From the sequence record DRR723986_647: DNA of 43,531 bases; one strand, given 5' to 3'. The translations under genes were made by a program, and so were the position numbers. The notes below the pieces were generated by a model that was not told the DNA's origin, did not search any database, and saw only the letters and a list, made by a program, of their open reading frames with translations. Numbering within the stretch: the stretch's first letter is position 1; each line of letters begins with the position of its first letter. This document shows, in pieces, positions 1 to 17,705 of this stretch.

Positions 1-335
1 GTATCAGCCTTTGCACCAGGCAACCCGGCTGCAAACAACAAATAGCGAAAGGGTGGTAATGAAATTGGGTCACCGAACAAAATAGAATCAGACACAAGCC
101 GAACGGCATCGCCAGCTACGCTCACAGACACCCCTGTTAGCGGCTTTGGATTATAATCAAGCCCCACTATTTCCGCAGCATTGACATCTGAAAATACTGT
201 ATCATTCGCGGCATCAGAGGTGAAAGCCGGGCTCATAAGATGGGCGGATATGCCCTGATGGATATAGCCAGGCAACACTCCGCTAACGACATTTTTGAGT
301 GTCTGCTTGTAAGCAATCATCTCGCCGATCAACAT
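1..335 (-). CDS. Putative phage/GTA virion structural protein (partial, runs off left edge)
   Basis: My translation from ATG at 335 (RBS GGAG upstream) is MLIGEMIAYKQTLKNVVSG...HLMSPAFTSDAANDTVFSDVNAAEIVGLDYNPKPLTGVSVSVAGDAVRLVSDSILFGDPISLPPFRYLLF..., open to the edge. It resembles small phage virion/tail proteins with a D..F.DV.A.E..G..Y motif, and is co-oriented with the fibre and capsid genes. Confidence 0.6.
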   Translation of the reverse strand, partial: MLIGEMIAYKQTLKNVVSGVLPGYIHQGISAHLMSPAFTSDAANDTVFSDVNAAEIVGLDYNPKPLTGVSVSVAGDAVRLVSDSILFGDPISLPPFRYLLFAAGLPGAKAD

Positions 336-385
336 GGCACAGCTCCATTTTTCAAAAAATAATAAGGCAAAAAAGCAAAAGTACT

Positions 386-616
386 TTAAACGCCGGTTAG
401 CTTTCGACGGCCTGACCTGGACCTCACAGCTCGAGACCTGACTTGCGGAGCTACACCCTGTTTTCGCCCGGCCACAAAAGCAGGCGTATCGTCAGCAAAC
501 ATGGTCAGGGCAGACGAAGAAACTGTGATAATGCCAAAATTAAGCGAGAGCATTTCACTGCGTATTCTGATTGCAGCCATTGGTGCGGCCGCAATAGTTG
601 ATCCTAAAAGGGTCAT
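386..616 (-). CDS. Small hypothetical phage-type protein
   Basis: ORF MTLLGSTIAAAPMAA...; this N-terminus resembles small virion proteins that follow fibre genes. Start may be the GTG at 628. Confidence 0.45.
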   Translation of the reverse strand: MTLLGSTIAAAPMAAIRIRSEMLSLNFGIITVSSSALTMFADDTPAFVAGRKQGVAPQVRSRAVRSRSGRRKLTGV

Positions 617-686
617 GAGAATATCCACATATTGCTGTAGTATTGGAATGCGAGACAGACAGATAGCCTATCTCACAGTTTTTCCG

Positions 687-890
687 CTATTGGGCCAGTG
701 ATTTGACATCATCGTTTGCTACCGCTGCACTTTTTGGTGCCTCTTCAGAAATAATAGCGGAAAGACAATTGAAAATATCCACATAAACCGGCATTTCTGC
801 GCCTTGCATTTGTGTGCGTTGCAGAAACTGCAAGATGGCTTTTGCTTGCTCAACTGAGATCATGTTTGGTTGATTTTGGGTGTTTGTCAT
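687..890 (-). CDS. Small hypothetical phage protein (possible fibre chaperone)
   Basis: 67-aa ORF with strong RBS (AAGGAG) directly downstream of the fibre gene; helical character. Confidence 0.6.
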   Translation of the reverse strand: MTNTQNQPNMISVEQAKAILQFLQRTQMQGAEMPVYVDIFNCLSAIISEEAPKSAAVANDDVKSLAQ

Positions 891-1063
891 TGGGTAAACT
901 CCTTCTATAGGCAGTTGGGTCGCCGCCTCACCATGAGCACGACATTTGAATATTAGGACACAATTAGATGGCCCTAATCAGGTTACAGATTGTGGAAAGC
1001 TTAAAGCGTACGGCGCCGATTTACGACGAACCACACCGACTAAAAAACTGCAGCTTGGTTGTT

Positions 1064-4000
1064 TTATCCGTTGTTGGAACGTGACAGCTCAACCCACAAC
1101 CCGCTATCATGGATAAGCACAAGCATGTCGGTGGACAGGTCCATTGTGAAATCACCGTTCAAGGCAATCGTAGCGCTATCCTTAACAACAACAGTATTGC
1201 TATCCGTTGCTGCTCTGAGCACTAAAATATCTCCGTTGTTGCCGCCATTTATGGTGGTTAAGTCGTCCGTGCTGCCGCTTTCAACGGCGATACGGTGAAA
1301 GCTTTTAGAAACAGTTACAGCCCCACTAGATATAGTGAGCGTTTCAACGCCTCCTAAAGATAACTTACCTTCAAGGTTTAATGACTTGTCTTCCTTGATC
1401 TCCGCAGCAAGTGCAAGACCCTCTGAGACATTCCGCACCCAAAACTGCATATCTGCATCACTGGTGGAAGAGCCGTTAAGTACGTTGATACGGGCCATTA
1501 CGCTATCGGCATTGTTAGCAAATTCTACGTTCCCTAGACCACTTCCAGCGGAACCGGCGTTGTTACGCCTTATAGTTATCTTGGCTGCGTTGCTGGCCGC
1601 AGATACCTGTAGGTCAGATATGCGGATGGCGGATGTATTGTTAAAGTCCCAATAGTCCGCACTGTGGTCCCAATGCAACCTATCGGTGGAGCCTGTTCTT
1701 ATTAATATATCATTAGCTTGAATGCTGTGCGTACTTCCGTAGAGGATTATATTTGCCCCGGTGGTGTCAGTACCTGAGTAGATATCAAGAGCGCTAGAGT
1801 TACTATCCCCGTGTATGGCTGGGACTGTTGTGGTGCCACTGAACTCTACATTTCCGCTGTTATCGACACCAATAGCGGTCGTTGATCCTATCTTTAGGTT
1901 AAATAATCCATCGCCAGCGCTCTCGCTATTTGATGTGAACTCGATAGCCGCTGCAAGAGAGCTATTTTGATAATACCCTATTTTGAATAGATCGGGGTCT
2001 CCCTCTTCAATCCCGGCAGCAACATAATCACCCGTTGACCCGCCAAAAAATATGTTCTTAGTTTCAGCTACATGTAAATCACCACTGACGGTCAGATCGC
2101 CGTTGACAGTCGCGTCGGTTTCTAATGTTGCTAAACTGGAAGTGAACGCCCCAACCACGTTGTTGCCGTTTGCGGCAAGATACAAAGTACCCTCAGAGCG
2201 CAAGGCGAGATCATCGGCCGTCTTGCCAGATATTGCAGCACCCGCGCCGCCACCAATATAGCCGAAAGGTGTGCCATTAGCCTTTAAAAACGTACCTACT
2301 GCGCCGGTATCAGCGCCCGATTTCATTTTAAACCAAACCCCACTAGTAACGTCTATGTCTAGTCTTGTTTTTAAAGTTGTTAGGCCAACCCCAAACTCGG
2401 CGAGATTAACCTCATCATATCGGATAAATGTTTGATCAGCGTAAGTGGTATGCGACTGTCCGTGTATTCTGATATTAGCACCCACAGTTGGGGACGTACC
2501 CCCCGATAACGTCATCTGCGTGGTAGAAGACGATTGGAATACAGAATTTAATTCAGAAATACTAGATACAACAAGGCGGCCAGCCATGGTCCACACTGAA
2601 CCGCTATCATCCCATCTCAGCCTTTGCGTAGTGCCTGACCTGAACAATATATCATTAGCTGTGGTGGCGTGGTTTTCTCCATAAAGTACTAAATTACCAC
2701 CGCTATCACCGTCCGTGCCGCCAGCTAGGATAAGCTGCACGGCATTGTTACCTCTAACTATAGAGGGTACACCGCTAATAGCGTTAGAATTGTAATTCCA
2801 TATAGACAGGCTAGCATCCCAAAGCAGCTTGGTATCAGACCCTTCTCGGAAGTTAATGTCTCCAGCGGTACCGGCGTACGCACTCCCACTAAATATAACA
2901 TTGCCGCCATCATTAGTGGCATCACCCCCGGCTAGCTGTATCTGAGCATTCGAACTGTTTCGAATCATCCCTGCACCGCTGGTCTTTATAAGCCCCGTGA
3001 CTGTCATGTTTCCAGTAGCGCCGTCAATTGCCCATTTATCGACAAAGGCAATGTCCGTGTCGACTGCGCCGCTCGTTGCATATTTATAAGCTATGCCTGT
3101 CGTAGTTTGACTTAGCGTTGTTGCCGTTCCAGTAGACTGTCTTTTCCACGTGCTGCCCGTAGAGAAATAAGCATTTACATTAGACCACCTGTCCACTCCT
3201 GTAGCGTTAAACATATCTGAATGTAGAGAGCAATACTGTACCGCGCGGTAACTATTGTGCCATGTTTCTGCGCCAGCATTGAATAACAACACTCTTCCTG
3301 TGCTGTCGAAGTCCAAGTCGCTGGAACCTGTTATATTTAGTCTGCCAGACATAGATAAGGAAGTAATACCTTCAACAGCGAGTGTGGTGAAACTCCATGA
3401 ACCGCCTGAATGGTTATAAAACAACTTGTTCGTTGAACCTGCCCTCAAAGCAATATCAGAAGCCTGTGTAGCATGAGCGCTAGGATAGAGAACTATGTTT
3501 GCACCAGCACCGACACTTGTATCTGACCCTAAGACAATACCGCCTGTACTATTGTTACTAAGAATGCTTCCGGCGACTGCTATATTACCGGCAGTTTCGA
3601 TATTCCCAAGCGCATCAAGGGTGAGATTCTCAACCGCACCGCTACCACGCAACACAAGATTATCAGCATTACCGTTAGCCTTGATAATAGCCTTGTTTGT
3701 GTCCCATGAAAGTTCACCACCTGCTGCAGAAGGGTTCCATGCAACAACACCGTCATCATTAACATAAAACCGCCGCGCACCGGCGCCGTGAACCTCAAAC
3801 TGTTTGTCATTTAACGAACTGCCTATACTCATCCCTGCGTCCACCGTAACACCGGCCCCCGGCGCAACCTCAGAGATCACATCGGCCTTAATATTGGGGT
3901 CCAGCAGAAAGTCCGCCGTCGCCGCACAAAACACCAATGCATTGCCAGACAAATCGATAGCACCAGGGCTGATTTTGTCATAAACCCCGTCCACCAAGGT

Positions 4001-4213
4001 TTCACCAACAGATGTTCGTTCCAGCGTATCTGTCGCCACTAACGTGCCATTGCCAATTTCATAATTATCACCGTCCTCAATCACATAGGTAACGGTGTCT
4101 CCCACGGAAAAGGCATCCGCAAATGTAACGTGGGCAGCAACAGCACCTACCAGGGTAATGTCGCCAGTGCCGGTCGTCAGCGTTACTTCTCGCACTCTGT
4201 TTGCAAGCGTCAT
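1064..4213 (-). CDS. Phage fibre/spike protein with about five internal repeats
   Basis: N-terminal LANRVREVTLTTGTGDITL.GA virion-attachment-type motif; Gly/Ser/Thr-rich beta composition; repeated GxN(I/V/L)x(L/I/F)xG/P..H...AxD(I)xxRxGxxx(K/R)LxW units; fibre-tip-like C-terminus (WVELSRSNN). Likely start ATG 4213 (RBS AAGGA); the track starts at 4228. Confidence 0.75.
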   Translation of the reverse strand: MTLANRVREVTLTTGTGDITLVGAVAAHVTFADAFSVGDTVTYVIEDGDNYEIGNGTLVATDTLERTSVGETLVDGVYDKISPGAIDLSGNALVFCAATADFLLDPNIKADVISEVAPGAGVTVDAGMSIGSSLNDKQFEVHGAGARRFYVNDDGVVAWNPSAAGGELSWDTNKAIIKANGNADNLVLRGSGAVENLTLDALGNIETAGNIAVAGSILSNNSTGGIVLGSDTSVGAGANIVLYPSAHATQASDIALRAGSTNKLFYNHSGGSWSFTTLAVEGITSLSMSGRLNITGSSDLDFDSTGRVLLFNAGAETWHNSYRAVQYCSLHSDMFNATGVDRWSNVNAYFSTGSTWKRQSTGTATTLSQTTTGIAYKYATSGAVDTDIAFVDKWAIDGATGNMTVTGLIKTSGAGMIRNSSNAQIQLAGGDATNDGGNVIFSGSAYAGTAGDINFREGSDTKLLWDASLSIWNYNSNAISGVPSIVRGNNAVQLILAGGTDGDSGGNLVLYGENHATTANDILFRSGTTQRLRWDDSGSVWTMAGRLVVSSISELNSVFQSSSTTQMTLSGGTSPTVGANIRIHGQSHTTYADQTFIRYDEVNLAEFGVGLTTLKTRLDIDVTSGVWFKMKSGADTGAVGTFLKANGTPFGYIGGGAGAAISGKTADDLALRSEGTLYLAANGNNVVGAFTSSLATLETDATVNGDLTVSGDLHVAETKNIFFGGSTGDYVAAGIEEGDPDLFKIGYYQNSSLAAAIEFTSNSESAGDGLFNLKIGSTTAIGVDNSGNVEFSGTTTVPAIHGDSNSSALDIYSGTDTTGANIILYGSTHSIQANDILIRTGSTDRLHWDHSADYWDFNNTSAIRISDLQVSAASNAAKITIRRNNAGSAGSGLGNVEFANNADSVMARINVLNGSSTSDADMQFWVRNVSEGLALAAEIKEDKSLNLEGKLSLGGVETLTISSGAVTVSKSFHRIAVESGSTDDLTTINGGNNGDILVLRAATDSNTVVVKDSATIALNGDFTMDLSTDMLVLIHDSGLWVELSRSNNG

Positions 4214-4253
4214 CCAGCAATCCTTCATGAAATCAAAATGGCAAATTTGGGCA

Positions 4254-4308: not shown

Positions 4309-5397
4309 TTACGCTGCAAACTCCAACAGCTTAATCGCGTCTGCATTTACAACGGCGCCGCCCACCCGCTTAGTGGCATAGAACAACACATTTGGTTTGT
4401 TGGTGTATGGGTCGCGCAGCACGCGCGTGCCGGTGCGCTCTACAATGGTGTAACCACGCTCGAAGTTACCGAAAGCAACCGAAAGCGAACCTGCCGCCAT
4501 ATCGGGCATATCTTCCGCTTCCACGACCGGGTAACCCAGCAACATGTCAGGCTGACCTTCAATCAAGCCTGGGCGCCAGATGAAATTGCCGTCTGTGTCT
4601 TTCATCTTGCGAATTTCAGCCAACGTCGCGCTGTTCATCACGAACTTTGCACCCTGCCGGTACCGGCTACCTAGTGCATGCACCAAGTCGACCAGAATGT
4701 CGGAAGGGTCAGAGCCGGGAAAACCACCATCAACGCCCGTTGTTACCTTGCCAATCGCAGCTTCAGTCAAAAAGCCTTTGGGCTTATTCACACCGTCACC
4801 GTCAATTACCGCTGCGCCTTCCTGGGCGGCAAACTCTTCTGCCACTTCTTCGGTCAGCCATGCTTCGGCGTCAAACTGCATGTCGTCCAGTGCGCGCTGG
4901 GTTGCAGCAGCGTTGGCGTAAATTTCGCCGGGTGTGATCGCAACTTCGATTAGCGACGGCGTTGCGGTATCACCGCGCGCATCTTCCTCGCCCACCCAGC
5001 CAGAAGCCGTACCGCCTGTGTTCACCAACCTCGTATATTTTGACGTCTCAATGGTTTTAACTTTACAAATTGAGCGCATGGGCGACAGATCACGCAGTTG
5101 CTTTTCAATCTCGCTGTCAATCACTGTGGGCACAGCAAAGCCGCCGTCACCGCCAGTTGCGGTTGAAAGACCTTTGGCCTCCAGGTCTTTCAACAGGCTG
5201 TCATCACCTTTGGTGATAAAGCCGTTTAGAAATGCGTGCTTATGCTCAAGCGCATCGGCGCATATGGCACTGCCGGCGTCGCCCGGGCGGGCCATTTTTG
5301 TTTCCATTGCATCCAGTCTGTCTTTCAGGCCCAGGATGCCACTTTCTGCCGCGTCGGTGTAATCATCGATCGCAGTCTTTAGGTCAGTCATTTCCAT
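4309..5397 (-). CDS. HK97-family major capsid protein (RcGTA-like)
   Basis: Motifs LEAKGLSTATGGDGGFAVP, ASGWVGE, GDGVNKPKGFL, LLGYPVVEAEDMPD, FGNFERGY and RDPYTNKPNVLFYATKRVGG are typical of alphaproteobacterial GTA/HK97 capsids. Confidence 0.95.
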   Translation of the reverse strand: MEMTDLKTAIDDYTDAAESGILGLKDRLDAMETKMARPGDAGSAICADALEHKHAFLNGFITKGDDSLLKDLEAKGLSTATGGDGGFAVPTVIDSEIEKQLRDLSPMRSICKVKTIETSKYTRLVNTGGTASGWVGEEDARGDTATPSLIEVAITPGEIYANAAATQRALDDMQFDAEAWLTEEVAEEFAAQEGAAVIDGDGVNKPKGFLTEAAIGKVTTGVDGGFPGSDPSDILVDLVHALGSRYRQGAKFVMNSATLAEIRKMKDTDGNFIWRPGLIEGQPDMLLGYPVVEAEDMPDMAAGSLSVAFGNFERGYTIVERTGTRVLRDPYTNKPNVLFYATKRVGGAVVNADAIKLLEFAA

Positions 5398-8088: not shown

Positions 8089-8117
8089 TAAAAAAGGCCG
8101 GTGAAACACCAGCCTTT
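8089..8117 (-). terminator. Intrinsic terminator after cspA
   Basis: Minus strand AAAGGCTGGTGTTTCACCGGCCTTTTTTA. Confidence 0.7.
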
Positions 8118-10793: not shown

Positions 10794-12106
10794 CAAAATG
10801 TCCTCAGGTTCGGAAGGGATTTACGGCCAAGCATCAAATCGGTCAGCGCCCACACCGCTGCATCCAGCCGGTCAGGGCTTTCGCCCGCAGCCTTGTGCGC
10901 GCCAGTAAGATTACCAGTGAAATTACACATTTGGTCTTCCAGTGCTGGCAATGCGCCCCAGTGGGACACCCTGCCTTGCTCATACAGGGCGGCAACCGGT
11001 TCCGCGCGGGCGATTTTTGCCCGGGTTGCGTGCACAGCCCTGTAGGCCACGCCTGCGTCCACCTCACGGATGATGGCTTCCACCATGGCACCGCCCATGT
11101 TGACTTCAGCAACGATGCGGTCGGCCTGTAACTCGTGGTACAGCGCCACCGCACGGCTGGCCCAACCGTGAGGGCTGAGGCCACGTTCGCTGGCGTCTTT
11201 GATAATAACGCCCTGCCCGTCGTGGGTAATGCCTGCAGCAACGATGCCGCATTCGTCTGCTTTCTCGCCCATGCTGGCAGGCGGGTCCACCGCCACAACA
11301 AGGCGGGCAAAGTCGGGTAAGTTGTGAATTCGGTTTGCTTCAATCAGGCTACGGGTCCACAGCGCGCCAGGGGTGTCCTCGAGAATTTCTGCGTTCAGTT
11401 CCTGACGCCCCAGCCGCGTGCCGCGGTAACGCGCGACAATATCGCGGGCAAAACCGGGGGCCAAATTCTTCAAATTGTCAAAGGTGGTGCCTTTGGTAAT
11501 GCGTGTCTTTGAGTTGCCAACCAACCGCTTCAAAATAGGGATCGGCTTCGGTGTTGTCGTAATCAGCGCCTTCGGCGCACGGCCAAGCCGCAGGCCAAAC
11601 AGCATCATGTCAAATGTGGTCTCTGCCTGTTTCCAGGCACATAGTTCGTCGCACCAAACCGCATCATGTTGCGGGCCGCGCAGGCGTTCGGGCTCCTCGG
11701 CACCAAATAAGGTAGCAACCGCGCCGTTAGGCCATGTAAGCGTGCGCTTGGACGGCTCATAAACCGGCTTGAACCAAGGCGGCGAAACGGCAAGCAAACC
11801 GCTGTCACCTTCCACCATAACCGCTCGGGCATCATGCAGCGTGGGCGCAATCAAGGCGATGCGCTTGGCACCACCAGTTTCCGCAAGCCCGCGCACCCAT
11901 TCGGCCCCGGCCCGGGTTTTGCCGAACCCCCGCCCCGCCAGCATAAGCCAGTATGTCCAGCGACCAGAGGGTGGCCGCTGGTTAGGGCGCGCCCAAAAGT
12001 CCCAGTCGTAATAGAGGCTGGCCGCTTCTGTGGCGGTAAGGCTATTCAGAAATTTGCGACGTTTTCCCTTTGGCAGCGACCGCACCGAACTTGCTGATAA
12101 GCGCAT
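10793..12106 (-). CDS. terL: Terminase large subunit (RcGTA-like)
   Basis: Walker A AGRGFGKTRAGAEW, LRGPQ, Walker B WCDE, ITTTPKP; nuclease motifs VAVDPP and SPDRLDAAVWA. Confidence 0.95.
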   Translation of the reverse strand: MRLSASSVRSLPKGKRRKFLNSLTATEAASLYYDWDFWARPNQRPPSGRWTYWLMLAGRGFGKTRAGAEWVRGLAETGGAKRIALIAPTLHDARAVMVEGDSGLLAVSPPWFKPVYEPSKRTLTWPNGAVATLFGAEEPERLRGPQHDAVWCDELCAWKQAETTFDMMLFGLRLGRAPKALITTTPKPIPILKRLVGNSKTRITKGTTFDNLKNLAPGFARDIVARYRGTRLGRQELNAEILEDTPGALWTRSLIEANRIHNLPDFARLVVAVDPPASMGEKADECGIVAAGITHDGQGVIIKDASERGLSPHGWASRAVALYHELQADRIVAEVNMGGAMVEAIIREVDAGVAYRAVHATRAKIARAEPVAALYEQGRVSHWGALPALEDQMCNFTGNLTGAHKAAGESPDRLDAAVWALTDLMLGRKSLPNLRTF

Positions 12107-12566
12107 CGCGGGCCCCTTCCAAATTCAAGTCATCGGCAGTTTTGCCGCTGCCGTCTTTTGTCATACTTTTGCCGGTCGTGCCGTAGCGTTCCGGCCTGCG
12201 TGATTTCAACAGAAACATCAGCATGGCGTCAGAATAGTCGGCCACATGGCCCACAACTTCACCGCCCCGGTACACAGGTTTTTCAACGCCCGTGACCGCA
12301 CGCCGGAAAGCTTCTTCTTCGATAATATCAGTGCCAGCCTCTTCCGCCGCTGCCCACTCAGCCGCAAAGCCCGCATCATCCTTACGCCAGCAATAGGGCG
12401 CGCTTGCTTTCACACCAGCCGCAACCGTCGCCGCCCGAACACTTTGCCCCGCAGCAATATGATCGAGAAATGTGGTTTTAGCTGGCTCCAACTTATGCAA
12501 GCTGTTATCGCCTTGCCCGCATACTGACCCACCCAAAGAGACAAGCTCGTCGTCCTTAGCGGTCAT
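12042..12566 (-). CDS. terS: Terminase small subunit
   Basis: HTH (FLDHIAAGQSVRAA...WRKDDAGFAAEW), EEEAFRRAVTG and YSDAMLMFLLKSRRPERY; overlaps the terL start. Likely start ATG 12566 (RBS GGAG) rather than the track start at 12665. Confidence 0.85.
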   Translation of the reverse strand: MTAKDDELVSLGGSVCGQGDNSLHKLEPAKTTFLDHIAAGQSVRAATVAAGVKASAPYCWRKDDAGFAAEWAAAEEAGTDIIEEEAFRRAVTGVEKPVYRGGEVVGHVADYSDAMLMFLLKSRRPERYGTTGKSMTKDGSGKTADDLNLEGARDALISKFGAVAAKGKTSQISE

Positions 12567-12583
12567 AGACACATCTCCGGTGC

Positions 12584-12623
12584 AAAAAATAAAAAACGCC
12601 GCCAGACAGATGTCTGCGACGTC
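12584..12623 (-). terminator. Leader terminator immediately upstream of terS
   Basis: Minus strand GACGTCGCAGACATCTGTCTGGCGGCGTTTTTTATTTTTT: hairpin plus long U-tract, lying between the operator at 12690 and the terS RBS. Confidence 0.65.
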
Positions 12624-12689
12624 GATGCATAGCTTCTCAATTTGACTGTCCCTATGGTGCATCAATATGCTTTAGGGTGCAAGTTATTT

Positions 12690-12704
12690 TTACGTTTTTC
12701 GTAA
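12690..12704. promoter_or_regulatory. Palindromic operator TTACG-N5-CGTAA upstream of the packaging operon
   Basis: Perfect TTACG-TTTTT-CGTAA; near-identical copies at 16385, 16440, 17660 and 17691. Confidence 0.65.
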
Positions 12705-12745
12705 ATTAATTTATTAAGCCAATGGAATCAGGTGATTAAGACAAA

Positions 12746-12785
12746 GAAAAAGCCCGCTCCGAAACATTGTCCCGAGAGCGAGCTA
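12746..12785 (-). terminator. Intrinsic terminator (minus direction)
   Basis: Minus strand AGCTCGCTCTCGGGACAATGTTTCGGAGCGGGCTTTTTC. Confidence 0.55.
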
Positions 12786-13103
12786 ATTCAGTCACTATGG
12801 CTATTGTTAGACTGCAATAAAACAGGGGTTCACGCAAGTGTTTTTTTCATCCTAGCCCGCATCAATCTTGGCCTTCTGGTCAGGAATGACGCCTAAATAT
12901 TGCTTAAGGTCTTGGTCTTTAACACACAGTTGGCGGCCTGTGTGGCCCGCAATGGCTAAAATTAATCTGGAAATAGAAACAAATTGACGCTAATGCTGTC
13001 TCCGTTTGGGGAAACGCGGCACGTAAGTTTCAGAGATTGTGGGGATCTCTGGTGTTTTGGTAACGACTGCGTTTTAAATGTTTTGATTAAGGGGGACGTC
13101 AAC

Positions 13104-13223
13104 ATGCAGCGAGATAGAACCAACACAAGAATGCGCCATGGTATGGCCTGTTGGGCCGCAATGGTTAGCTTTTTCGGCGTGATTGGCGGCGTGCTGTACT
13201 ACAGCCTGTCTGCCTCTGTGTAA
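13104..13223 (+). CDS. Small single-TM protein (39 aa)
   Basis: MQRDRTNTRMRHGMACWAAMVSFFGVIGGVLYYSLSASV with strong RBS AAGGGGGA. Confidence 0.5.
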   Translation: MQRDRTNTRMRHGMACWAAMVSFFGVIGGVLYYSLSASV

Positions 13224-13250: not shown

Positions 13251-13817
13251 TCAAGCCAGAGCGGATCTGATGGCCTCATGTTCTCCTGCTTGCTTCTCAG
13301 GCACACCAAACCCAATATCAATATAGGACAAACTGCGCAGAACCGAACTGGCTACGCCGCCATTGTTGCTGTCGTCTAAATCAAATTGCCGACTGGGCAA
13401 CATCAACCCAATGGTGTTCTGGGGTTTGCCGTCAGGATTATCGACCGGAAAACCCAAGCTGGAAAGCGTATAGCTTTTGCCGCTTTCAAACAGCACATCG
13501 CGCACCACCATGCTGGCGCAGGGCAATGCAAAAACATTTTTGGTAATTTCCATATAAATCGGCGCGTCTTGCGGCGGGCATACATCGAGGTAGTTCATGC
13601 CCGTAATGGCATTGCCCGAGATTTCATCCAGCGACGTACCTACCAGCCGCACAAGCATGTCCGTAGGCGACCGATGCTCCAGAATATACACATAAGGCAA
13701 CAATGTGGGAATTTGGCATGGGTCAAACTGCGAACGCATAGGCAAGCCCCCACCAGCATCAGCCTGCAAGGACTTCCAATATTTTGTAAATTGCTCGAAT
13801 TGGGCCGAAACTATCAT
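13251..13817 (-). CDS. PAS-domain protein (PAS_5/DUF1457 type)
   Basis: YWKSL...LPMRSQFDPCQIPTLLPYVYILE...VRLVGT signature; paralogue of the adjacent gene. Confidence 0.8.
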   Translation of the reverse strand: MIVSAQFEQFTKYWKSLQADAGGGLPMRSQFDPCQIPTLLPYVYILEHRSPTDMLVRLVGTSLDEISGNAITGMNYLDVCPPQDAPIYMEITKNVFALPCASMVVRDVLFESGKSYTLSSLGFPVDNPDGKPQNTIGLMLPSRQFDLDDSNNGGVASSVLRSLSYIDIGFGVPEKQAGEHEAIRSALA

Positions 13818-14024
13818 CTGCGCAAGCCCCTGTTCTAACCCGGTTAGCAAAAAAAGCTTAAATACACTACTACCACATACCGTTCAGCCCACAGGGCCAA
13901 TATGCGGCACATTATCACACACTATTACTGCAAATATAGCATCAAAATCGCAGAAGCAATAACCTTACTATCGCTAAAAATGCAGCGGCAATGGCGGGTA
14001 GAGAATGCCTTCATTTTGGTGTTT

Positions 14025-14606
14025 TTATTGGTTCGGTATTTTGTGCAGCCCCGGTGAAACATGCGGTGCTGATATTTCGGACACCTCCGGCACACCGAAC
14101 CCGATATCAATATATTCCAGGCTGCGCAGCACAGAGCGCGTGACGCCGCCGTTATCCATTTCATCCGCTGCAAAATGTCTGTGGGGTATCATCACACCAA
14201 TACTGTAGGTCAGCGCGCCGTCTTGGTCGGCCATGGGGTAGCCAAGGCTGGAAAGAGTATAATTTTTACCACTTTCAAAGGTTAGGTCCCGTATCACCTT
14301 AGTGGCGCAGGGTAAAAGGCTGCGGTATTTATTAACTTCCTTGTAAAGGGGCACATCTTGAGGGGGACAGAAGTCAAAGAAATTACGCCCCGTATAAGCG
14401 TGAGACGCTATTTCATCCAACGACGTGCCGACAAGGCGCATAATCATTTCATCATCAGATTTATGCTCTAGCAAGTAGACATAGGGCAGCAGGCTGGCAA
14501 TTTGAGCGGGGTTGAGCTGCGACTTTGCCGGAATTGGCCCCTCGGCCGCGGCCTGAAGCCTTTCCCAGTAATCAGTGAATTGTTTGAATTGCGCCGAGAC
14601 AGGCAT
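14025..14606 (-). CDS. PAS-domain protein (PAS_5/DUF1457 type)
   Basis: YWERL...IPAKSQLNPAQIASLLPYVYLLE...MRLVGT; RBS GGGGAG before ATG 14606. Confidence 0.8.
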   Translation of the reverse strand: MPVSAQFKQFTDYWERLQAAAEGPIPAKSQLNPAQIASLLPYVYLLEHKSDDEMIMRLVGTSLDEIASHAYTGRNFFDFCPPQDVPLYKEVNKYRSLLPCATKVIRDLTFESGKNYTLSSLGYPMADQDGALTYSIGVMIPHRHFAADEMDNGGVTRSVLRSLEYIDIGFGVPEVSEISAPHVSPGLHKIPNQ

Positions 14607-14657
14607 AGATGCCAGCTCCCCCTTACGAACCACCCTGCCAGCGAACCCTATCATAAA

Positions 14658-15209
14658 CTAAGCTTGAGCCAAAATAATGCTGGCCAACCAGCGCAGGCCG
14701 TTGTTGTAGCGGCGCTTCATGGTCCAGCGCGACTGCACGCTGTCCAAACTGCGCCGCACTTTCGCCCACGGTATTTTCACCTGCACTTCGCCGTCCTGGT
14801 GCCAACAGGCCCAAAACAACAGCTTTCTATCGCCGGGGTCGGGTAACAGCTGAAGCAAATCAAGTACGGGCTGCATCTGATCAATTTCCTGCGGCGAAAG
14901 CCGCACACTCCGGCGCGCTTGCAGGGCTGTCATAGCGGGCGGCGCATAGGTGCCAGCGTCTGCTGCTGTGTCTGGCCACATCATGGTACGCATGTGCAAA
15001 TACCCTTTTTCGCGGTCTGGCATACGCCTAAGTGTCCATGCCGCCGCCACCAAGCGCGCCTCAATACGTTCAACCATTTTATCAACGGCCTGCGCGTGCT
15101 CGCCTTTTTCACATCGGCTTTCTTTCAATAGCTTTGCTGCGGCGGCCGTGGCTGGCTTGTGGGCTTTATGAGGGTGGTTTTTCTTCGTCAGGGGAATTGA
15201 TTGATGCAT
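14658..15209 (-). CDS. DUF6362-like phage transcriptional regulator (putative late activator/antiterminator)
   Basis: IEARLVAAAWTLRRMPD...WP...SPQEIDQM...LL...IPWAKV...SRWTMKRRY..GL pattern with a C-terminal HTH. Start 15209 inferred from RBS AAAGGA. Confidence 0.65.
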   Translation of the reverse strand: MHQSIPLTKKNHPHKAHKPATAAAAKLLKESRCEKGEHAQAVDKMVERIEARLVAAAWTLRRMPDREKGYLHMRTMMWPDTAADAGTYAPPAMTALQARRSVRLSPQEIDQMQPVLDLLQLLPDPGDRKLLFWACWHQDGEVQVKIPWAKVRRSLDSVQSRWTMKRRYNNGLRWLASIILAQA

Positions 15210-15294: not shown

Positions 15295-16347
15295 TCATAG
15301 CCAGCCCCATGCTGGCCCGTAACGGTCACGTACTTTTCTTGGGATGTGGCGGGTGGCGGTCAGGCGCGGGTTTGCCCCCAACCCTCGTTCGCGGAACGTT
15401 GGATGGTCAGTGGGGATGAACCAATGACGCGCCAGATACTCTCCGCGAAACCTGTTGGTAGGGTCACCCAACAAACTTTGCCAATGCGCTGTGTCGGTGG
15501 GGTCAAAATCTTTTTTGCTGGCCTGGAGTTTTTTGCGCGCAGGTTTTCGCTCGCGGCCTGCCTGCTCTGCTTTTTGCCGGTTAACGGAAGCCTCCAGCAC
15601 AGCTTCGCGAAAATAGCCCAAACTGTGCGGTGCGCGGCCGGTGCGGCCAATTTCGCGCGCCGCAACCGCCGTAATGGTTGGAATGGCATCCAACGATAGG
15701 TCAACGCCTGCCGCCCACCATAAATGCAGCACCGTATCATCCAATAGCGTTCCTTCGGGGCACACATCGCTCATGCTAGTGCGCCACTGGCTTTGCTGGT
15801 CAACCGAGAGAGGTTGATCCGCTAAGGCGGGCCGATCAGCTATAGCGGGCTGGCCACTGCCCGACTTTTTCACCAATAGGGTATCAACGGCAGGCGGCTG
15901 CTTTTGTTTGGATTTGGTTTTGGTTGCTTGTCCACTTGTGGGGTTGGTCGCTGGCGTTTTGCTACCTGTTTCGCTAAATGAGAATTCTGATCCATTTGCC
16001 GTTTTACTTTTAGCGGCCTTTGCCCTGCCCCCACGCGCACCGTTAGCCTTGTTGCGGGCAACTCTGGCCGCCACGTCGCTGTAGACTGCCTGCAATTTCT
16101 TCTGCCGCCACACACCGTCTTCCAGGTTGAAAAACTGTGCCAATACCGGCCTCAAACGTCGCCATTTGGTGGGGCTTAACCCCGCGATACGGGCAAGGGT
16201 TTTGTCATTGTCTTCCAAAGCGCATCCGGTACTGCGCCACGCACACATCAATAGCAGCAGATAAGCCCCGTGCTCTTCCGTGGTTAGGTGCCGGGTGTCT
16301 GCCAAATAAGCGTCAGTGAAAAGTGGCAAGGCCGGATAAAGCGCCAT
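15295..16347 (-). CDS. YdaU/DUF1376-family phage replication-initiator-like protein
   Basis: LPLFTDAYLADTRHLTTEEHGAYLLLLM..W and NGARGGRAK signatures; RBS AGGAG. Confidence 0.8.
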   Translation of the reverse strand: MALYPALPLFTDAYLADTRHLTTEEHGAYLLLLMCAWRSTGCALEDNDKTLARIAGLSPTKWRRLRPVLAQFFNLEDGVWRQKKLQAVYSDVAARVARNKANGARGGRAKAAKSKTANGSEFSFSETGSKTPATNPTSGQATKTKSKQKQPPAVDTLLVKKSGSGQPAIADRPALADQPLSVDQQSQWRTSMSDVCPEGTLLDDTVLHLWWAAGVDLSLDAIPTITAVAAREIGRTGRAPHSLGYFREAVLEASVNRQKAEQAGRERKPARKKLQASKKDFDPTDTAHWQSLLGDPTNRFRGEYLARHWFIPTDHPTFRERGLGANPRLTATRHIPRKVRDRYGPAWGWL

Positions 16348-16384
16348 AGTGTCTCCTGTGAATTACGAATTGATTTTCATTTTA

Positions 16385-16454
16385 TTTCGTTTTTCGTAAT
16401 TTATGAAGCGAAATAATTTTTAAAATATCTTGCAATTAATTACTAAATTCGTAA
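16385..16454. promoter_or_regulatory. Divergent promoter region with two operators
   Basis: TTTCG-TTTTT-CGTAA (16385-16399) and TTACT-AAATT-CGTAA (16440-16454). TTGCAA at 16430-16435 is -35-like and the repressor ATG lacks an RBS, consistent with a leaderless mRNA. Confidence 0.6.
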
Positions 16455-16464
16455 TAGTAGCTTT

Positions 16465-17229
16465 ATGCCAGCGCAAACTTGGATACGAGCCACCTTGAAA
16501 GAGAGAGGCTTAAAGCTGAAGGATGCCGCGGCGGCGCTTAACATAACGCCGCCGCGCGTGACCGATATTCTCAAGGGTATGCGCGAAGTTCAGGCCGATG
16601 AAATTTTGCCGCTCGCAACCCTCTTGGGCATGACATCAAAGTCATTGCTTGCCAGCCTTGCGAAGGGTGAAAAAACCAATGCCGGACGAGAGCTGGACGG
16701 CCCATCGCTGCAGGTGCTTGGTTCACTCACCGGCACCGGCGATCTGATACCCCTAAGCCCGGACGCCAAGATTAGCAGCGTGCCTGTGCCGCCTGATGCG
16801 GAAAGCAGCGAAGGCCTTTATTGTTACCTGATGGGGGATGACAGCCTTGAGCAGGAAATTCGTCAAGGCTCGTTGATTATTGCCGGTGACCCCCGGGTGC
16901 ATTTCTTCCCGATGGTGCCAGGCGCCATTTTCATTATTGATATGGGCCCAAATAAAGGGGGTAGCTCAAATAAAGAGAGCAGAAAAATAACCGCCCGGCA
17001 ATATTTCAAAAGCCCGAACGGGGAAGACTGGCTGGTGCCTCTGCCCGCCAACCACAACCCGCACTATGAAAGCTGGCGTTTCTCCATGCTACCGGCTGAA
17101 CTGGAAGGCGCCAATGTGGCGGCTATGCCAGGAAGCGGCACGGAAACGCCGGCTCATAAAGTCGTACGCACGACTGACATTGTCGCGGTTGTGATGTGGG
17201 TACATCGGCGCTACACACCTGAAACATAG
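16465..17229 (+). CDS. XRE/CI-like phage repressor (HTH plus degenerate S24-like domain)
   Basis: HTH WIRATLKERGLKLKDAAAALNITPPRVTDILKGMREVQADEI; C-terminal YCYLMGDDSLEQEIRQGSLII resembles S24. Confidence 0.8.
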   Translation: MPAQTWIRATLKERGLKLKDAAAALNITPPRVTDILKGMREVQADEILPLATLLGMTSKSLLASLAKGEKTNAGRELDGPSLQVLGSLTGTGDLIPLSPDAKISSVPVPPDAESSEGLYCYLMGDDSLEQEIRQGSLIIAGDPRVHFFPMVPGAIFIIDMGPNKGGSSNKESRKITARQYFKSPNGEDWLVPLPANHNPHYESWRFSMLPAELEGANVAAMPGSGTETPAHKVVRTTDIVAVVMWVHRRYTPET

Positions 17230-17659
17230 CTTGAAACTGAGGGGCCTCGGCGGGCTTTGTTGGCCTGTGGCCTTGCGCTAGTTTGGCCTGAACCGGTGCT
17301 ATGCGCCCCGGATATATTGCCGCTTTGTCTGCCTGCGCTCTGCCCTTTTGGCCTTGGCTGCCCCGCGACAATGACTTCCAGCGATCTTTGGTGGTGGGTC
17401 GGTTTTCTACTTGGGGTTTATCTTTCGCCGTTGACGGCTTGGTTTCCAATTCACGTGCAATTTTATCAGCACCGACATGCGTCATTCTCTCCCCAATCTT
17501 CACCTTAAAGTATCTTCATTCAGTTTTCTCACATGCCGCGCGCCAAACAGTGTACCCACCCGGCACACTCTATGCTGGTATTTTAAACTGCTCTTTGCGG
17601 CAAGAATTTGACGATAGTGTATATAAGGTACCATCTTCGTAAGGTGTTGTCGTAAATTT

Positions 17660-17705
17660 TTACGTTTTTCGTTATTTTATTGGACAGCACTTACTTTTTA
17701 CGTAA
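17660..17705. promoter_or_regulatory. Two further TTACG-N5-CGTAA-like operators
   Basis: TTACG-TTTTT-CGTTA (17660-17674) and TTACT-TTTTA-CGTAA (17691-17705); a weaker copy at 17628-17642. Confidence 0.6.

What the first reader, a model, noticed from the sequence alone, without database searches (positions are those of the whole stretch)
1..17705. GTA-like head cluster still linked to a minimal prophage control module, with head genes broken up by inserted genes
Seen: terL, portal and capsid are intact and carry RcGTA-like motifs. They are linked to repressor <> YdaU-like rep > DUF6362-like gene, with only 117 bp between repressor and rep (no cro). No integrase, helicase/loader or recombination genes are in view. 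Inserted genes separate regulator from terS, portal from protease, and protease from capsid. The capsid is followed directly by a fibre rather than head-tail connectors. Known: canonical RcGTA clusters are compact, and GTA control in Rhodobacter (GafA) and Caulobacter (RogA, GafY, GafZ) uses phage-like regulators. Inference: this is a domesticated particle-forming system, either a distinct GTA architecture or a prophage-to-GTA intermediate, possibly with a reduced or relocated tail.
Basis: partly seen in the sequence, partly recalled or inferred. Interest (0 to 1): 0.75.

Follow-up and report, generated by a model that had tools for sequence, protein, structure and literature searches.

The report
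Conserved phage-derived particle cluster in Kordiimonas
This is the control, DNA-packaging, head and fibre part of a phage-derived particle gene cluster that marine Kordiimonas-type bacteria have kept, together with its own repressor switch, across many species, so it may be a phage caught partway to becoming a gene transfer agent.

Summary
On the minus strand of window 1-17705 lie a CI-type repressor divergent from a DUF1376/YdaU-like gene, a DUF6362-like gene, two PAS_5 genes, terS, terL, portal, an S78 protease, an HK97 capsid and a 1054-aa fibre. Lineage-specific genes sit at the three places named.

Nine related loci from Kordiimonadaceae show the same order. Repressor and TerL co-diverge over 29 elements (r=0.87). 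No integrase lies on the repressor side in 5 of 5 elements. Core genes are intact, under purifying selection, and have host-like GC3.

After the fibre module, relatives carry a Gp77-like fibre adaptor, head-tail adaptor, head closure and tail terminator. This neck module lies just left of the window edge. Tube and distal tail genes were seen only in Pseudokordiimonas.

A 15-bp motif marks three regulatory regions. The late operon starts behind a conserved intrinsic terminator, which suggests antitermination control.

It is not a canonical RcGTA-family member: the g3.5, g12 and g13 families were not matched. Best reading (about 0.45): a long-resident, probably domesticated, GTA-like element with a cis-encoded immunity switch. 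The main rival is a functional temperate phage family whose far end was not visible.

The parts
3..335 (-). orfA, first 111 of about 150 codons (cut by the window edge). Last gene of the fibre module before the Gp77-like adaptor in relatives.
   Evidence: Conserved in L002, L004, L005, L007, L009 and L010 (30-55% id). Only a weak phrog_644 hit for the L009 copy.
386..628 (-). orfB, 80 aa, poorly conserved
   Evidence: Weak matches in L002 and L004 only. No family hit.
687..890 (-). orfC, 67 aa, always found just after the fibre gene
   Evidence: Matches in 7 loci (37-76% id). No family hit.
1064..4228 (-). Fibre: 1054-aa beta-strand-repeat protein with a conserved N-terminal domain of about 130 aa and a variable remainder
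   Evidence: No Pfam, PHROG, NCBIfam or PDB sequence hit. N-terminus is 55-86% identical among relatives while the rest diverges. N-terminus resembles phage 'tail fiber' N-termini at 32-40%. GC3 0.45.
4309..5397 (-). HK97-type major capsid protein
   Evidence: PF05065 5e-87, TIGR01554 2.5e-112. 63-94% id in relatives. dN/dS 0.02-0.10.
5632..5940 (-). 102-aa protein with an N-terminal signal-like segment and a sub-threshold ubiquitin-family hit
   Evidence: PF00240 E 3.5e-5, below the cut-off. Conserved upstream of the capsid gene in L002, L003, L005, L006 and L007. Sequence.
6091..6795 (+). Opposite-strand 234-aa membrane-anchored protein (lineage-variable insert)
   Evidence: No hit in four libraries. 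Homologue in L003; analogous opposite-strand genes in 7 loci.
6944..8047 (-). S78 prohead protease (residues about 28-165) with a 200-aa C-terminal extension of scaffold-like type
   Evidence: PF04586 2.5e-32, TIGR01543 1e-35. The C-terminal region has stand-alone paralogues in L002, L003, L006 and L010.
8093..8117 (-). Strong intrinsic terminator after csp, inside the head operon
   Evidence: 11-bp stem, 6 GC pairs, T-run.
8140..8346 (-). Cold-shock-domain gene (insert, shared with L004)
   Evidence: PF00313 2.9e-21. 91% id in L004 only.
8575..8826 (+). Opposite-strand 83-aa ORF conserved between portal and protease
   Evidence: 44-76% id in L003, L004 and L006. No family hit.
8840..9522 (-). 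orf141 and orf85, window-specific inserts
   Evidence: No match in any of the 8 loci compared. GC3 0.32 and 0.42.
9582..10796 (-). HK97-type portal
   Evidence: PF04860 1e-83, TIGR01537 5.6e-59. 67-92% id in relatives.
10793..12106 (-). Large terminase
   Evidence: Terminase_6N and 6C. Falls in a 64-row clade that holds all named Kordiimonadales rows.
12042..12565 (-). Small terminase, with corrected start
   Evidence: phrog_4044 6.5e-29. ATG at 12565 with a GGAG ribosome-binding site after the leader terminator.
12584..12612 (-). Leader hairpin plus T-run between the late promoter and terS
   Evidence: A hairpin plus T-run at the same place in 6 of 6 elements, with different stem sequences in L007 and L009.
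12645..12704 (-). Late promoter region: 15-bp motif (12690-12704) and a nearly invariant block of about 45 nt
   Evidence: Alignment of 6 elements. Motif statistics. No sigma-70 consensus hit on this strand.
12745..12800 (-). Conserved strong hairpin plus T-run, probably the end of the early operon (or a small RNA)
   Evidence: -25.1 kcal/mol, z -5.07, 0 of 200 shuffles as good. Conserved with compensatory changes in L003, L005, L006 and L009.
13104..13223 (+). 39-codon hydrophobic ORF on the opposite strand
   Evidence: 64-72% id over 39-45 aa in L003, L005 and L006. Sequence context.
13251..14654 (-). Two PAS_5 (MopJ-like) genes, 13251-13850 and 14025-14654
   Evidence: PF07310 2.4e-15 and 1e-10. 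NCBIfam MopJ match below cut-off. One copy in L003, L005 and L006, three in L007, none in L009.
14658..15209 (-). DUF6362-like protein, the candidate late activator or antiterminator
   Evidence: Present in all 6 elements that show this region, including the minimal L009. All-helical model, pLDDT 69.7. No PDB fold match.
15295..16347 (-). DUF1376/YdaU-like protein (N-terminal 86 aa) with a lineage-specific C-terminal domain
   Evidence: PF07120 5e-19; PHROG 'primosomal protein' families. Only residues 1-90 match phage proteins. Absent in L009.
16348..16464 (.). 117-bp divergent control region with an early promoter and two motif copies (16385-16399, 16440-16454)
   Evidence: Promoter-like TTCATA-17-TAAAAT on the minus strand. 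Blocks conserved in L003, L005, L006 and L009.
16465..17229 (+). CI-type repressor: XRE helix-turn-helix plus a C-terminal domain
   Evidence: HTH_3 1.2e-6, phrog_4 over residues 7-206. 92 homologues; every row carrying an organism name is Kordiimonadales or an unclassified alphaproteobacterial MAG. 8 of 92 carry a precomputed Peptidase_S24 hit.
17660..17705 (.). Outer pair of motif copies just beyond the repressor's 3' end, marking the right limit of the element
   Evidence: The same arrangement occurs in L003, L005 and L006.

Best explanation
Window 1-17705 is the regulatory, packaging, head and fibre part of a phage-derived head-neck(-tail) gene cluster. The cluster is a long-term resident of Kordiimonadales chromosomes and is probably domesticated: GTA-like in life style, but not a member of the RcGTA family.

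Proposed working:
1. A CI-type repressor, made from the 117-bp divergent region, holds the system off by binding a 15-bp motif (TTACG-N5-CGTAA, also readable as two ACGAAAA repeats). The motif sits at three places: in the early promoter, at the late promoter, and just beyond the repressor gene.
2. On release, the early operon is transcribed (DUF1376/YdaU-like, DUF6362-like, PAS_5 proteins) and ends at a strong hairpin.
3. The late operon starts at a non-consensus promoter. It must pass an intrinsic terminator in its leader and another terminator after the inserted csp gene. The DUF6362-like protein is the only early protein kept in every relative, and is proposed to activate or antiterminate this operon, in the manner of lambda Q or Caulobacter GafZ.
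4. The late genes build an HK97-type head (TerS, TerL, portal, protease with scaffold-like tail, capsid) and a variable fibre anchored by a Gp77-like adaptor. The neck, and where seen the tail, are encoded just left of the window.

Shown: gene content, synteny, co-divergence, conserved motifs and terminators.
Inferred: who binds the motif, antitermination, particle production, and what DNA is packaged.
For: - Synteny of the whole architecture in 9 related loci.
- In a tree of 114 TerL rows, all 11 named Kordiimonadales rows and my 6 Kordiimonadaceae rows fall in one clade of 64 (SH-aLRT 97). The 4 phages, the canonical RcGTA-type L001 and 4 named non-Kordiimonadales rows fall outside.
- The repressor family has 92 members; every row carrying an organism name is Kordiimonadales or an unclassified MAG.
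- 25 repressor rows share a longest-contig length with a TerL row.
- Repressor and TerL distances correlate over 29 elements: r 0.87, with 0 of 2000 permutations as high.
- 55 of 73 gene-pair comparisons gave a finite dN/dS, all at or below 0.42 with dS at or above 0.77. The other 18 were too saturated.
- Core genes have GC3 0.56-0.67, like host genes. Variable genes have 0.32-0.49.
- Repressor-side neighbours are cellular genes with no integrase in 5 of 5 elements. W and L003 share DM13 and a 179-aa neighbour.
- L007 has LysR and two other genes inserted inside the element.
- L009 has no DUF1376 gene and no PAS genes.
- Motif: 5 copies with at most 1 mismatch in the window, all in the three regulatory regions; 1.16 expected, and 1 of 100 shuffles reaches 5. 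L005 has 6 copies in the same three regions, against 0.81 expected.
- A leader hairpin plus T-run lies before terS in 6 of 6 elements. An internal terminator lies at 8093-8117.
Against: - A repressor and a DUF1376 replication-type gene kept under purifying selection are what a working temperate phage would show.
- The fibre has a conserved anchor and a fast-changing remainder, as in phages under host-range selection.
- The tail-distal end of the element was never seen, so an integrase, att site and lysis genes could lie there.
- Repressor-side neighbours differ between W/L003 and L005, L006 and L009, so a fixed chromosomal site is not shown.
- The families that mark RcGTA-type clusters (DUF6107, DUF2460, Gp84_N/BR0599) were not matched.
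- The DUF6362 model has no significant fold match to sigma region 4 or Q proteins; the best E-value was 0.65.
- Purifying selection does not separate a GTA from a phage.
- No expression, particle or packaging data exist.
Confidence: 0.45

Rival explanations
1. A family of functional temperate siphophages of Kordiimonadales. The window shows the immunity region, early genes and head genes of an ordinary prophage. Its integrase, att site, lysis genes and rest of the tail lie beyond the left edge.
For: - Complete CI-type switch, DUF1376 gene and intact packaging and head genes.
- A variable receptor-type fibre.
- True phages and prophages with this kind of head-tail module exist: MW202777 at 45 kb, and the inducible prophage vB_MseS-P1 (PMC11409702: abstract and sections 9, 10 and 12 read).
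- Repressor-side flanks differ among species.
Against: - No integrase next to the repressor in 5 of 5 elements.
- No helicase, loader or other replication gene. L009 lacks even the DUF1376 gene.
- Cellular genes are inserted inside the element in L007.
- The same operator motif is kept across species. That is unusual for phage immunity regions (inference from general knowledge).
- Control and packaging modules co-diverge without mosaicism.
- Core GC3 is host-like.
Confidence: 0.3
2. A true member of the RcGTA lineage: vertical descent from the RcGTA ancestor, here extended to Kordiimonadales, that has secondarily gained a regulatory module and inserts.
For: - Homologues of g2-g5 in the window, and of g6-g10 (plus g10.1 by Pfam) in relatives, in RcGTA order.
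- Only short ORFs (268 and 245 aa) at the tape-measure position in L009.
- A GTA-gp10 chaperone family hit in L009.
Against: - No DUF6107 (g3.5) in the window.
- The L009 proteins at the g12 and g13 positions do not hit DUF2460 or Gp84_N/BR0599, while L001's do, at 1e-83 and 1e-49.
- terS is unrelated to L001 g1.
- The TerL clade is separate from L001 and as close to phages.
- Kordiimonas pumila N18 was among 1,642 genomes screened with GTA-Hunter, but the name does not recur in the held supplement text of that study, that is, in the list of 293 genomes with complete GTA regions (PMC10883770: section 10 and a supplement search).
Confidence: 0.12
3. A decaying cryptic prophage remnant with no present function.
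For: Many insertions, opposite-strand genes inside operons, and loss of the DUF1376 and PAS genes in L009.
Against: - All core ORFs are intact in every relative.
- dN/dS is 0.02-0.2 at saturated dS.
- Promoters, operators and terminators are conserved across species.
Confidence: 0.08
4. A capsid-forming phage satellite (cf-PICI-like) that makes its own heads and steals tails.
For: Head and packaging genes with a small control module, and no tail gene within the window itself.
Against: - Relatives encode a head-tail adaptor, head closure and tail terminator. L009 also encodes a tube protein, chaperones and distal tail proteins.
- No integrase or primase was seen.
Confidence: 0.03

Closest known systems
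RcGTA-type gene transfer agents (Rhodobacter capsulatus RcGTA, Caulobacter crescentus CcGTA), here represented by locus L001 (MW091529.1)
   Same: - HK97-type module in the same order: terS, terL, portal, protease, capsid, adaptor, head closure, tail terminator, tube, chaperones.
- No integrase in view.
- Residence across a whole bacterial order.
- Late operon gated by terminators, as in CcGTA (PMC11150451: passages read).
   Different: - No g3.5 (DUF6107) family match, and no g12 or g13 family match in the one relative that reaches those positions.
- Only 44-52% identity, no closer than to phages.
- A repressor and early operon are encoded next to the cluster. By contrast, gafYZ in Caulobacter is a separate operon with its own promoter, distinct from the main GTA cluster (PMC9632790, PMC11150451: passages read); that RcGTA's GafA is also encoded away from its cluster is recalled, not read.
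- A fibre module is inserted between capsid and adaptor.
- Many inserts.
Prophages with RcGTA-like head-tail modules (vB_MseS-P1, Methylobacterium nodulans LC1-LC5, Rhizobium phage 16-3; PMC11409702)
   Same: - Phage regulatory genes linked to a head-tail module of RcGTA architecture.
- Extra structural genes, including capsid fibre genes inside the structural region (section 12 read).
   Different: Those are inducible, or are flanked by typical prophage genes. Here no integrase or lysis gene was seen, and the element is shared by many species of one order and co-diverges as a unit.
Lambdoid immunity switch with Q-type late antitermination
   Same: - Divergent repressor and early promoters.
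- Repeated operators, including a distant set on the other side of the repressor gene.
- A late promoter followed closely by a terminator.
- The candidate late regulator is encoded just upstream of the late promoter.
   Different: - No cro-like gene in the 117-bp gap.
- The same motif also sits at the late promoter.
- The candidate regulator (DUF6362) shows no detectable similarity to Q proteins.
- S24 catalytic residues are unverified.
Bartonella BaGTA
   Same: A phage-derived particle system in which antitermination ties loci together, and in which a phage replication function is retained (bioRxiv 10.1101/2024.11.20.624540: abstract and passages read).
   Different: Unrelated structural genes (recalled, not tested here). 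No evidence here of run-off replication; that role for the DUF1376 gene is only a speculation.

Membership tests
RcGTA-type 'large cluster' (Shakya et al. 2017, PMC5721377) | At least nine homologues of the 17 RcGTA head-tail genes in one region | tested here: inconclusive
   Tested against L001, a canonical RcGTA-type cluster, not RcGTA itself. The window holds g2, g3, g4 and g5. Relatives add g6, g7, g8, g9 and g10 by BLAST, and g10.1 by Pfam. So relatives have 9-10, but only 4 are visible in the window.
RcGTA-type 'large cluster' | Distal tail genes g12-g15 (DUF2460; Gp84_N plus BR0599; NlpC/P60; GTA_TIM plus Rcc01698_C) | tested here: not met
   L001's proteins hit these families at 1e-83 to 1e-134. 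The L009 proteins at the g12 and g13 positions hit none at E<=0.1 and do not match L001 by BLAST. The g14 and g15 positions were not in any locus.
RcGTA-type 'large cluster' | g3.5 (DUF6107) between portal and protease | tested here: not met
   orf85, orf141 and the plus-strand 83-aa ORF have no DUF6107 hit. L001's g3.5 hits it at 2e-30. The GTA surveys themselves call g3.5 hard to detect (PMC10883770, section 10).
Gene transfer agent (functional definition) | No integrase or self-replication genes; not excisable | tested here: inconclusive
   No integrase on the repressor side in 5 of 5 elements. A DUF1376 gene is present except in L009. The tail-distal boundary was not seen.
Gene transfer agent (functional definition) | Particles package mainly random host DNA, too little to carry the cluster | not testable with these tools
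   Needs induction, electron microscopy and sequencing of DNase-protected DNA.
Gene transfer agent (evolutionary criteria) | Vertical inheritance with the host, purifying selection, one copy | tested here: inconclusive
   - One TerL clade holds every row that carries a Kordiimonadales name.
- Modules co-diverge.
- dN/dS is low.
- Clusters mostly sit on one contig each.
- No host species tree could be built, and flanks are shared only between W and L003.
Temperate tailed prophage | Integrase with att sites at a boundary | tested here: inconclusive
   Absent at the visible boundary, and no tRNA. The other boundary is outside all sequence held.
Temperate tailed prophage | Repressor-controlled early operon with replication genes, plus lysis genes | tested here: inconclusive
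   The repressor and a DUF1376 gene are present. No helicase, loader or primase, and no lysis gene in view. L009 lacks the DUF1376 gene.
Capsid-forming PICI / satellite | Own head genes but no tail genes; integrase and primase-type replication | tested here: not met
   Neck genes in 4 of 4 relatives that reach them, and tail genes in L009. No integrase or primase.
Q/GafZ-type antitermination-controlled late operon | Terminator(s) downstream of the late promoter that must be read through | tested here: met
   A leader hairpin plus T-run in 6 of 6 elements. A strong terminator inside the operon at 8093-8117. Read-through itself is inferred.
Q/GafZ-type antitermination-controlled late operon | A dedicated antiterminator protein related to Q, GafZ or GafA | tested here: inconclusive
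   The DUF6362 model (pLDDT 69.7) has no PDB match with E<=0.001. No GafZ or GafA sequence was available to compare. 'DUF6362' occurs in no paper of the library.

The most novel reading that the evidence does not exclude
Kordiimonadales carry their own order-wide gene transfer agent, which arose independently of (or as a deep sister to) RcGTA. It still keeps in cis the ancestral phage immunity switch: one repressor whose operator sits on the early promoter, the late promoter and a third outer site, plus terminator-gated late transcription driven by a DUF6362 protein. That would make it a living intermediate between prophage and GTA, with DUF6362 a new class of late-gene activator or antiterminator.
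Probability: 0.3. Interest if true: 0.75.

Novelty: new variant of a known kind. Interest (0 to 1): 0.55.

Why it matters
[quoted passage not shown] In Caulobacter the GTA regulators form their own operon apart from the cluster, and intermediate stages are rare.

This element is a phage-derived particle cluster that a whole bacterial order has kept, together with its own repressor, operators and terminator-gated late operon. It would let the steps of domestication be studied directly: loss of integrase and replication genes, capture of host signalling genes such as PAS_5, and insertion of cellular genes.

It also gives a testable role to DUF6362, a family found in bacterial and viral sequences and absent from the searchable literature. 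It also gives a defined operator motif for experiments.

If it turns out to be an ordinary temperate phage family, the value is modest: a first description of Kordiimonas prophages and their control region.

Tried and rejected
- Fold search of the DUF6362 model against the PDB: nothing significant. Best E was 0.65; an ECF sigma factor hit at rank 6 had probability 0.23.
- Repressor structure model: too poor to use (pLDDT 51.6). Sequence and profile searches of the PDB matched only the helix-turn-helix part. The S24 nature of the C-terminal domain therefore rests on a phrog_4 match and on precomputed PF00717 hits in 8 of 92 homologues. My by-eye reading is that a GDDS serine is kept but the usual lysine is not; it uses a recalled motif and is only a lead.
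- Complex prediction of the fibre N-terminal domain with the Gp77-like protein of L004: no verdict. This is not evidence either way.
- tblastn of the DUF6362-like protein against phage genomes: no match.
- PDB sequence search with the fibre: nothing.
- PADLOC and Pfam on the inserted and opposite-strand genes: nothing beyond a generic cold-shock domain.
- Rfam on 1-20000: only sub-threshold matches.
- Tube-protein search of representative proteins with the L009 tube protein: 1399 hits, four with E<=1e-30. The look-up meant to show whether Kordiimonas genomes hold them could not be made.
- Whether DUF6362 equals GafZ or GafA: the GTA papers read name no Pfam family.
- dN/dS as a GTA-versus-phage test: rejected as non-discriminating, and dS is saturated.
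- A CtrA-box reading of the control regions by eye found no TTAA-N7-TTAA site. No tool was run for this.

Full report
**What is in the window**

Reading the minus strand from right to left:
- A helix-turn-helix repressor lies on the plus strand at 16465-17229.
- A 117-bp gap separates it from a gene with an N-terminal DUF1376/YdaU domain (15295-16347).
- Next come a DUF6362-like gene (14658-15209) and two PAS_5 genes.
- Then follow terS, terL (Terminase_6N/6C) and an HK97-type portal.
- Four small genes follow, including a cold-shock gene.
- An S78 prohead protease with a 200-aa C-terminal extension comes next.
- A plus-strand 234-aa gene and a 102-aa gene with a signal-like N-terminus follow.
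- The HK97-type capsid gene is followed by a 1054-aa repeat protein with no family hit.
- Three small ORFs complete the series; the last (orfA) is cut by the window edge.

No integrase, helicase, recombinase or tRNA was found anywhere in the window. From about 17.8 kb rightwards the genes are cellular: DM13, two TonB-dependent receptors, hydantoinase and others.

The DUF6362 assignment rests on three things: a sub-threshold Pfam hit, phrog_6836 at 1.3e-10, and 15 of the 30 best feature-based ESM Atlas hits belonging to DUF6362 sets.

**Host and relatives**

The fibre's homologues are 'beta strand repeat-containing proteins' of Kordiimonas. About 130 N-terminal residues are conserved and the rest is variable.

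One scan of species-representative genomes with the protease returned 11 loci. Nine are real relatives (L002-L010: Kordiimonas, Pseudokordiimonas and MAGs). Two are weak Butyrivibrio matches that I ignored. The window's own genome was not among them; the best protease identity was 86%.

A tblastn map and an ORF-level table show the whole order conserved wherever the loci reach: repressor, DUF1376, DUF6362, PAS_5, terS, terL, portal, protease, capsid, fibre, orfC, orfA. This holds in L003, L005, L006 and L007.

L009 (Pseudokordiimonas) has a shorter form: repressor, DUF6362 gene, terS and onwards. It has no DUF1376 gene and no PAS genes.

Identities to the window rank the same way for all core genes:
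- Capsid: 89-94% in the close loci, 70% in L007, 63% in L009.
- TerL: 77-79%, 66% and 65% respectively.

**What lies left of the window**

In 6 of 6 relatives with sequence beyond orfA (L002, L004, L005, L007, L009, L010), the next genes are a Gp77-like protein and a head-tail adaptor. The Gp77-like protein hits PF23148, the fibre-tail adaptor of podophage GP4, at E 1e-24 to 6e-24 in the three copies scanned.

In the 4 relatives that reach further, a head-closure gene and a tail-terminator gene follow. The connectors are therefore not missing. They follow a fibre module of fibre, orfC, orfB, orfA and Gp77-like.

Only three loci extend past the tail terminator:
- In L009, a Phage_tail_2 tube protein, GTA-gp10-type and TAC_6 chaperones, two ORFs of 268 and 245 aa at the tape-measure position, a distal tail protein (phrog_1302) and a tail protein (phrog_2048) follow directly.
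- In L005 (0.5 kb more) and L010 (1.06 kb more), the next ORFs are on the opposite strand and look non-phage.

Whether the tail genes of Kordiimonas proper resume after such an insert or lie elsewhere stayed open. The look-up that would have named them could not be made.

**Is it RcGTA-like?**

The phage-database record MW091529.1 (L001) turned out to be a compact canonical RcGTA-type cluster. It hits DUF6107, DUF2460, Gp84_N plus BR0599, NlpC/P60, and GTA_TIM plus Rcc01698_C.

Against L001, the window and its relatives have homologues of g2-g10, plus g10.1 by Pfam. There is no DUF6107 gene. The L009 proteins at the g12 and g13 positions hit none of the RcGTA families. terS is unrelated to L001's g1.

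Identity to L001 (TerL 50-52%, portal 44%, capsid 46%) is no higher than to true phages. TerL is 55% identical to the 45-kb MW202777, which has a DNA polymerase and a 700-aa tape measure. Capsid is 50% identical to SfII and ST64B.

[quoted passage not shown] Kordiimonas does not occur in that paper's two held supplement files.

Kordiimonas pumila N18 is listed among the 1,642 genomes screened in PMC10883770. The name does not recur in the held supplement text, which should include the 293 genomes with complete GTA regions. Held files may be cut.

Three literature searches found no paper: 'gene transfer agent' with 'Kordiimonas', 'RcGTA' with 'Kordiimonadales', and 'DUF6362'. One paper holds 'Kordiimonas' with 'prophage'. 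By its title and abstract start (listing only) it concerns a Shewanella phage.

**Evidence for long residence as one unit**

TerL search and tree:
- The TerL search listed its 120 best rows.
- I built a tree from the 103 rows of at least 400 aa, leaving out the 17 shorter ones, plus 11 sequences of my own: the window, five Kordiimonadaceae loci, L001 and four phages.
- All 11 rows named as Kordiimonadales fall in one clade of 64 rows (SH-aLRT 97). These are K. marina, K. laminariae, K. pumila, K. sediminis, K. sp. SCSIO 12603, K. sp. SCSIO 12610, a Kordiimonas sp., Gimibacter soli, Yunchengibacter salinarum and two MAGs. My six Kordiimonadaceae rows fall there too.
- The four phages, L001, two Firmicutes rows and two Stellaceae rows lie outside.
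- Most rows in the clade are unnamed.

Repressor family:
- It has 92 members at E<=1e-10.
- The named ones are K. lipolytica, K. lacus, K. pumila, K. sediminis, K. marina, K. sp. SCSIO 12610, Yunchengibacter, Pseudokordiimonas, Eilatimonas, one Kordiimonas MAG and two unclassified alphaproteobacterial MAGs.
- Twenty-five repressor rows have exactly the same longest-contig length as a TerL row, and 14 of those contigs are under 100 kb. I take this as the same contig; that is an inference.

Co-divergence and selection:
- Over these 25 pairs plus four pairs taken directly from DNA, repressor and TerL distances correlate (r 0.87 over 406 pairs; 0 of 2000 permutations as high). One mild outlier is the contig of 855,888 bases.
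- dN/dS by NG86 was finite in 55 of 73 comparisons and never above 0.42. Capsid was 0.02-0.10, TerL 0.09-0.18, repressor 0.14-0.27 and DUF1376 0.10-0.20. The other 18 comparisons were too saturated, and dS was at least 0.77 throughout, so the ratios are rough.

Composition and flanks:
- Conserved core genes have GC3 0.56-0.67 (protease 0.51), like the 22 host genes in the window (0.44-0.70).
- The fibre, orfA-C, orf85, orf141, csp and the plus-strand 234-aa gene have 0.32-0.49.
- On the repressor side, the neighbours are cellular genes in all five elements that show the boundary: DM13 in W; LysE and DM13 in L003; a 280-aa ORF with only a sub-threshold NMT1 hit in L005; TetR in L006; glycosyltransferase, phosphoesterase and RTX in L009.
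- W and L003 share DM13 and a 179-aa neighbour. The others do not.
- In L007, a LysR gene and two unknown genes sit between the PAS genes and the late promoter.

**The control region**

The 117-bp gap holds a promoter-like site on the minus strand (TTCATA-17-TAAAAT). A 15-bp motif lies in its spacer. The motif can be read as the palindrome TTACG-N5-CGTAA or as two ACGAAAA repeats.

With at most one mismatch, the palindrome occurs five times in the 43.5-kb window: at 12690, 16385, 16440, 17660 and 17691. All five lie in three regulatory regions. The chance expectation is 1.16, and 1 of 100 shuffles reaches five. The fuller 15-mer with up to two mismatches gives 4 matches against 0.21 expected, and 0 of 100 shuffles reach four.

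L005 shows the same three clusters with 3, 2 and 1 copies. That is 6 matches against 0.81 expected, and 0 of 100 shuffles reach six. L003, L006 and L007 carry exact copies at corresponding places.

Upstream of terS, an alignment of six elements shows three things in order:
- The motif.
- A nearly invariant block of about 45 nt.
- A GC-rich hairpin with a T-run just before the ribosome-binding site and ATG of terS. The stem sequences differ in L007 and L009, so it is the structure that is kept.

This moves the terS start to 12565.

No sigma-70 consensus hit lies on this strand at the late promoter. A second strong terminator (11-bp stem) follows the inserted csp gene, inside the operon and ahead of the protease gene. 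A conserved hairpin at 12745-12800 (z -5.07) closes the early operon. In L009 it directly follows the DUF6362 gene.

From this I infer a lambda-like circuit:
- A repressor binds shared operators. The outer set perhaps serves looping, or a convergent promoter.
- Late transcription needs activation and terminator read-through.
- The DUF6362 protein is the candidate regulator, because it is the only early protein present in all six elements and is encoded just upstream of the late promoter.

The comparison with Caulobacter GafZ, and with the site it binds between the -35 and -10 elements, comes from PMC11150451 (passages read). Nothing here shows which protein binds the motif. An alternative is that the motif loads the DUF6362 protein.

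**Weighing**

Points in favour of a resident, probably domesticated element:
- Order-wide conservation as one co-diverging unit.
- A conserved operator.
- Host-like composition of the core genes.
- Cellular genes inserted inside the element.
- No integrase beside the repressor.
- A relative with no replication gene at all.

Points that keep an ordinary temperate phage family in play:
- The retained switch and DUF1376 gene.
- The fast-changing fibre.
- Non-conserved flanks in three relatives.
- The unseen tail-distal end.

Failing the RcGTA membership features lowers 'it is an RcGTA-type GTA'. It does not lower 'it works like a GTA'.

Confidences: 0.45 for a domesticated GTA-like element, 0.30 for a functional temperate phage, 0.12 for a true RcGTA-lineage member, 0.08 for a functionless remnant and 0.03 for a satellite.

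**Limits**

- Only one relative shows tube and distal tail genes.
- bioRxiv supplements were closed and PMC supplements may be cut.
- The taxonomic reach rests on the minority of database rows that carry names.

Noticed in passing
window 6091-6795 (+); L003 11130-15273; L006 11272-15524; also L002, L005, L007, L010: Between protease and capsid, relatives carry lineage-specific tandem units. Each unit has an opposite-strand gene for a 215-295 aa membrane-anchored protein with two conserved cysteines. In L002, L003, L006 and L010 it also has a same-strand paralogue of the protease's C-terminal (scaffold-like) region. No Pfam or PADLOC hit. It looks like a variable-gene hot spot inside the head operon.
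   Followed up: partly
window 13104-13223 (+): A 39-codon hydrophobic ORF on the opposite strand between the PAS genes and the late promoter. It is conserved at 64-72% in L003, L005 and L006. Its function is unknown; it could be a small membrane peptide or a toxin-like gene.
   Followed up: no
window 17660-17705; L003 about 2650-2720; L005 2495-2575; L006 about 2470-2560: A third cluster of two or three operator-like motifs with promoter-like hexamers lies just beyond the repressor's 3' end, pointing back into the repressor gene. It could be an antisense promoter or a looping partner of the main operators.
   Followed up: partly
window 8093-8346 (-): A cold-shock-domain gene with its own strong terminator sits inside the head operon. 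It is shared only with L004 (91% id). There is a sub-threshold Rfam cspA thermoregulator match (23 bits against a threshold of 78).
   Followed up: partly
window 12745-12800 (-): A very stable conserved hairpin plus T-run (z -5.07). The sequence before it resembles the late promoter block. It could be a short regulatory RNA rather than only a terminator.
   Followed up: partly
L001 (MW091529.1, 1-18183): A record filed as 'Bacteriophage sp., partial genome' is a compact canonical RcGTA-type cluster (g1-g15 families) followed by efflux-pump genes. It is therefore probably a bacterial GTA locus and not a phage.
   Followed up: partly
L004 (JAALKD010000106.1): This contig is labelled as a Sphingomonadales MAG, yet its capsid is 94% and its portal 92% identical to the window's Kordiimonas-type element. 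The taxonomic label of the bin may be off.
   Followed up: no
L007 3222-6931: In Kordiimonas marina, a LysR regulator and two unknown genes (370 and 440 aa) lie between three PAS_5 genes and the late promoter, inside the element.
   Followed up: partly
window 16465-17229 (+): Eight of 92 homologues of the repressor carry a precomputed Peptidase_S24 hit, while the window's copy does not reach it. By eye, a GDDS serine is invariant but no lysine is invariant in the C-terminal domain. This may be a non-cleaving LexA/CI-like domain.
   Followed up: partly
window 17230-18600: Several ORFs between the repressor and DM13 have no hit in any library and no counterpart in relatives (113 aa +, 126 aa -, 91 aa -, 135 aa +, 85 aa +). 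L003 has a LysE exporter at the corresponding place.
   Followed up: no
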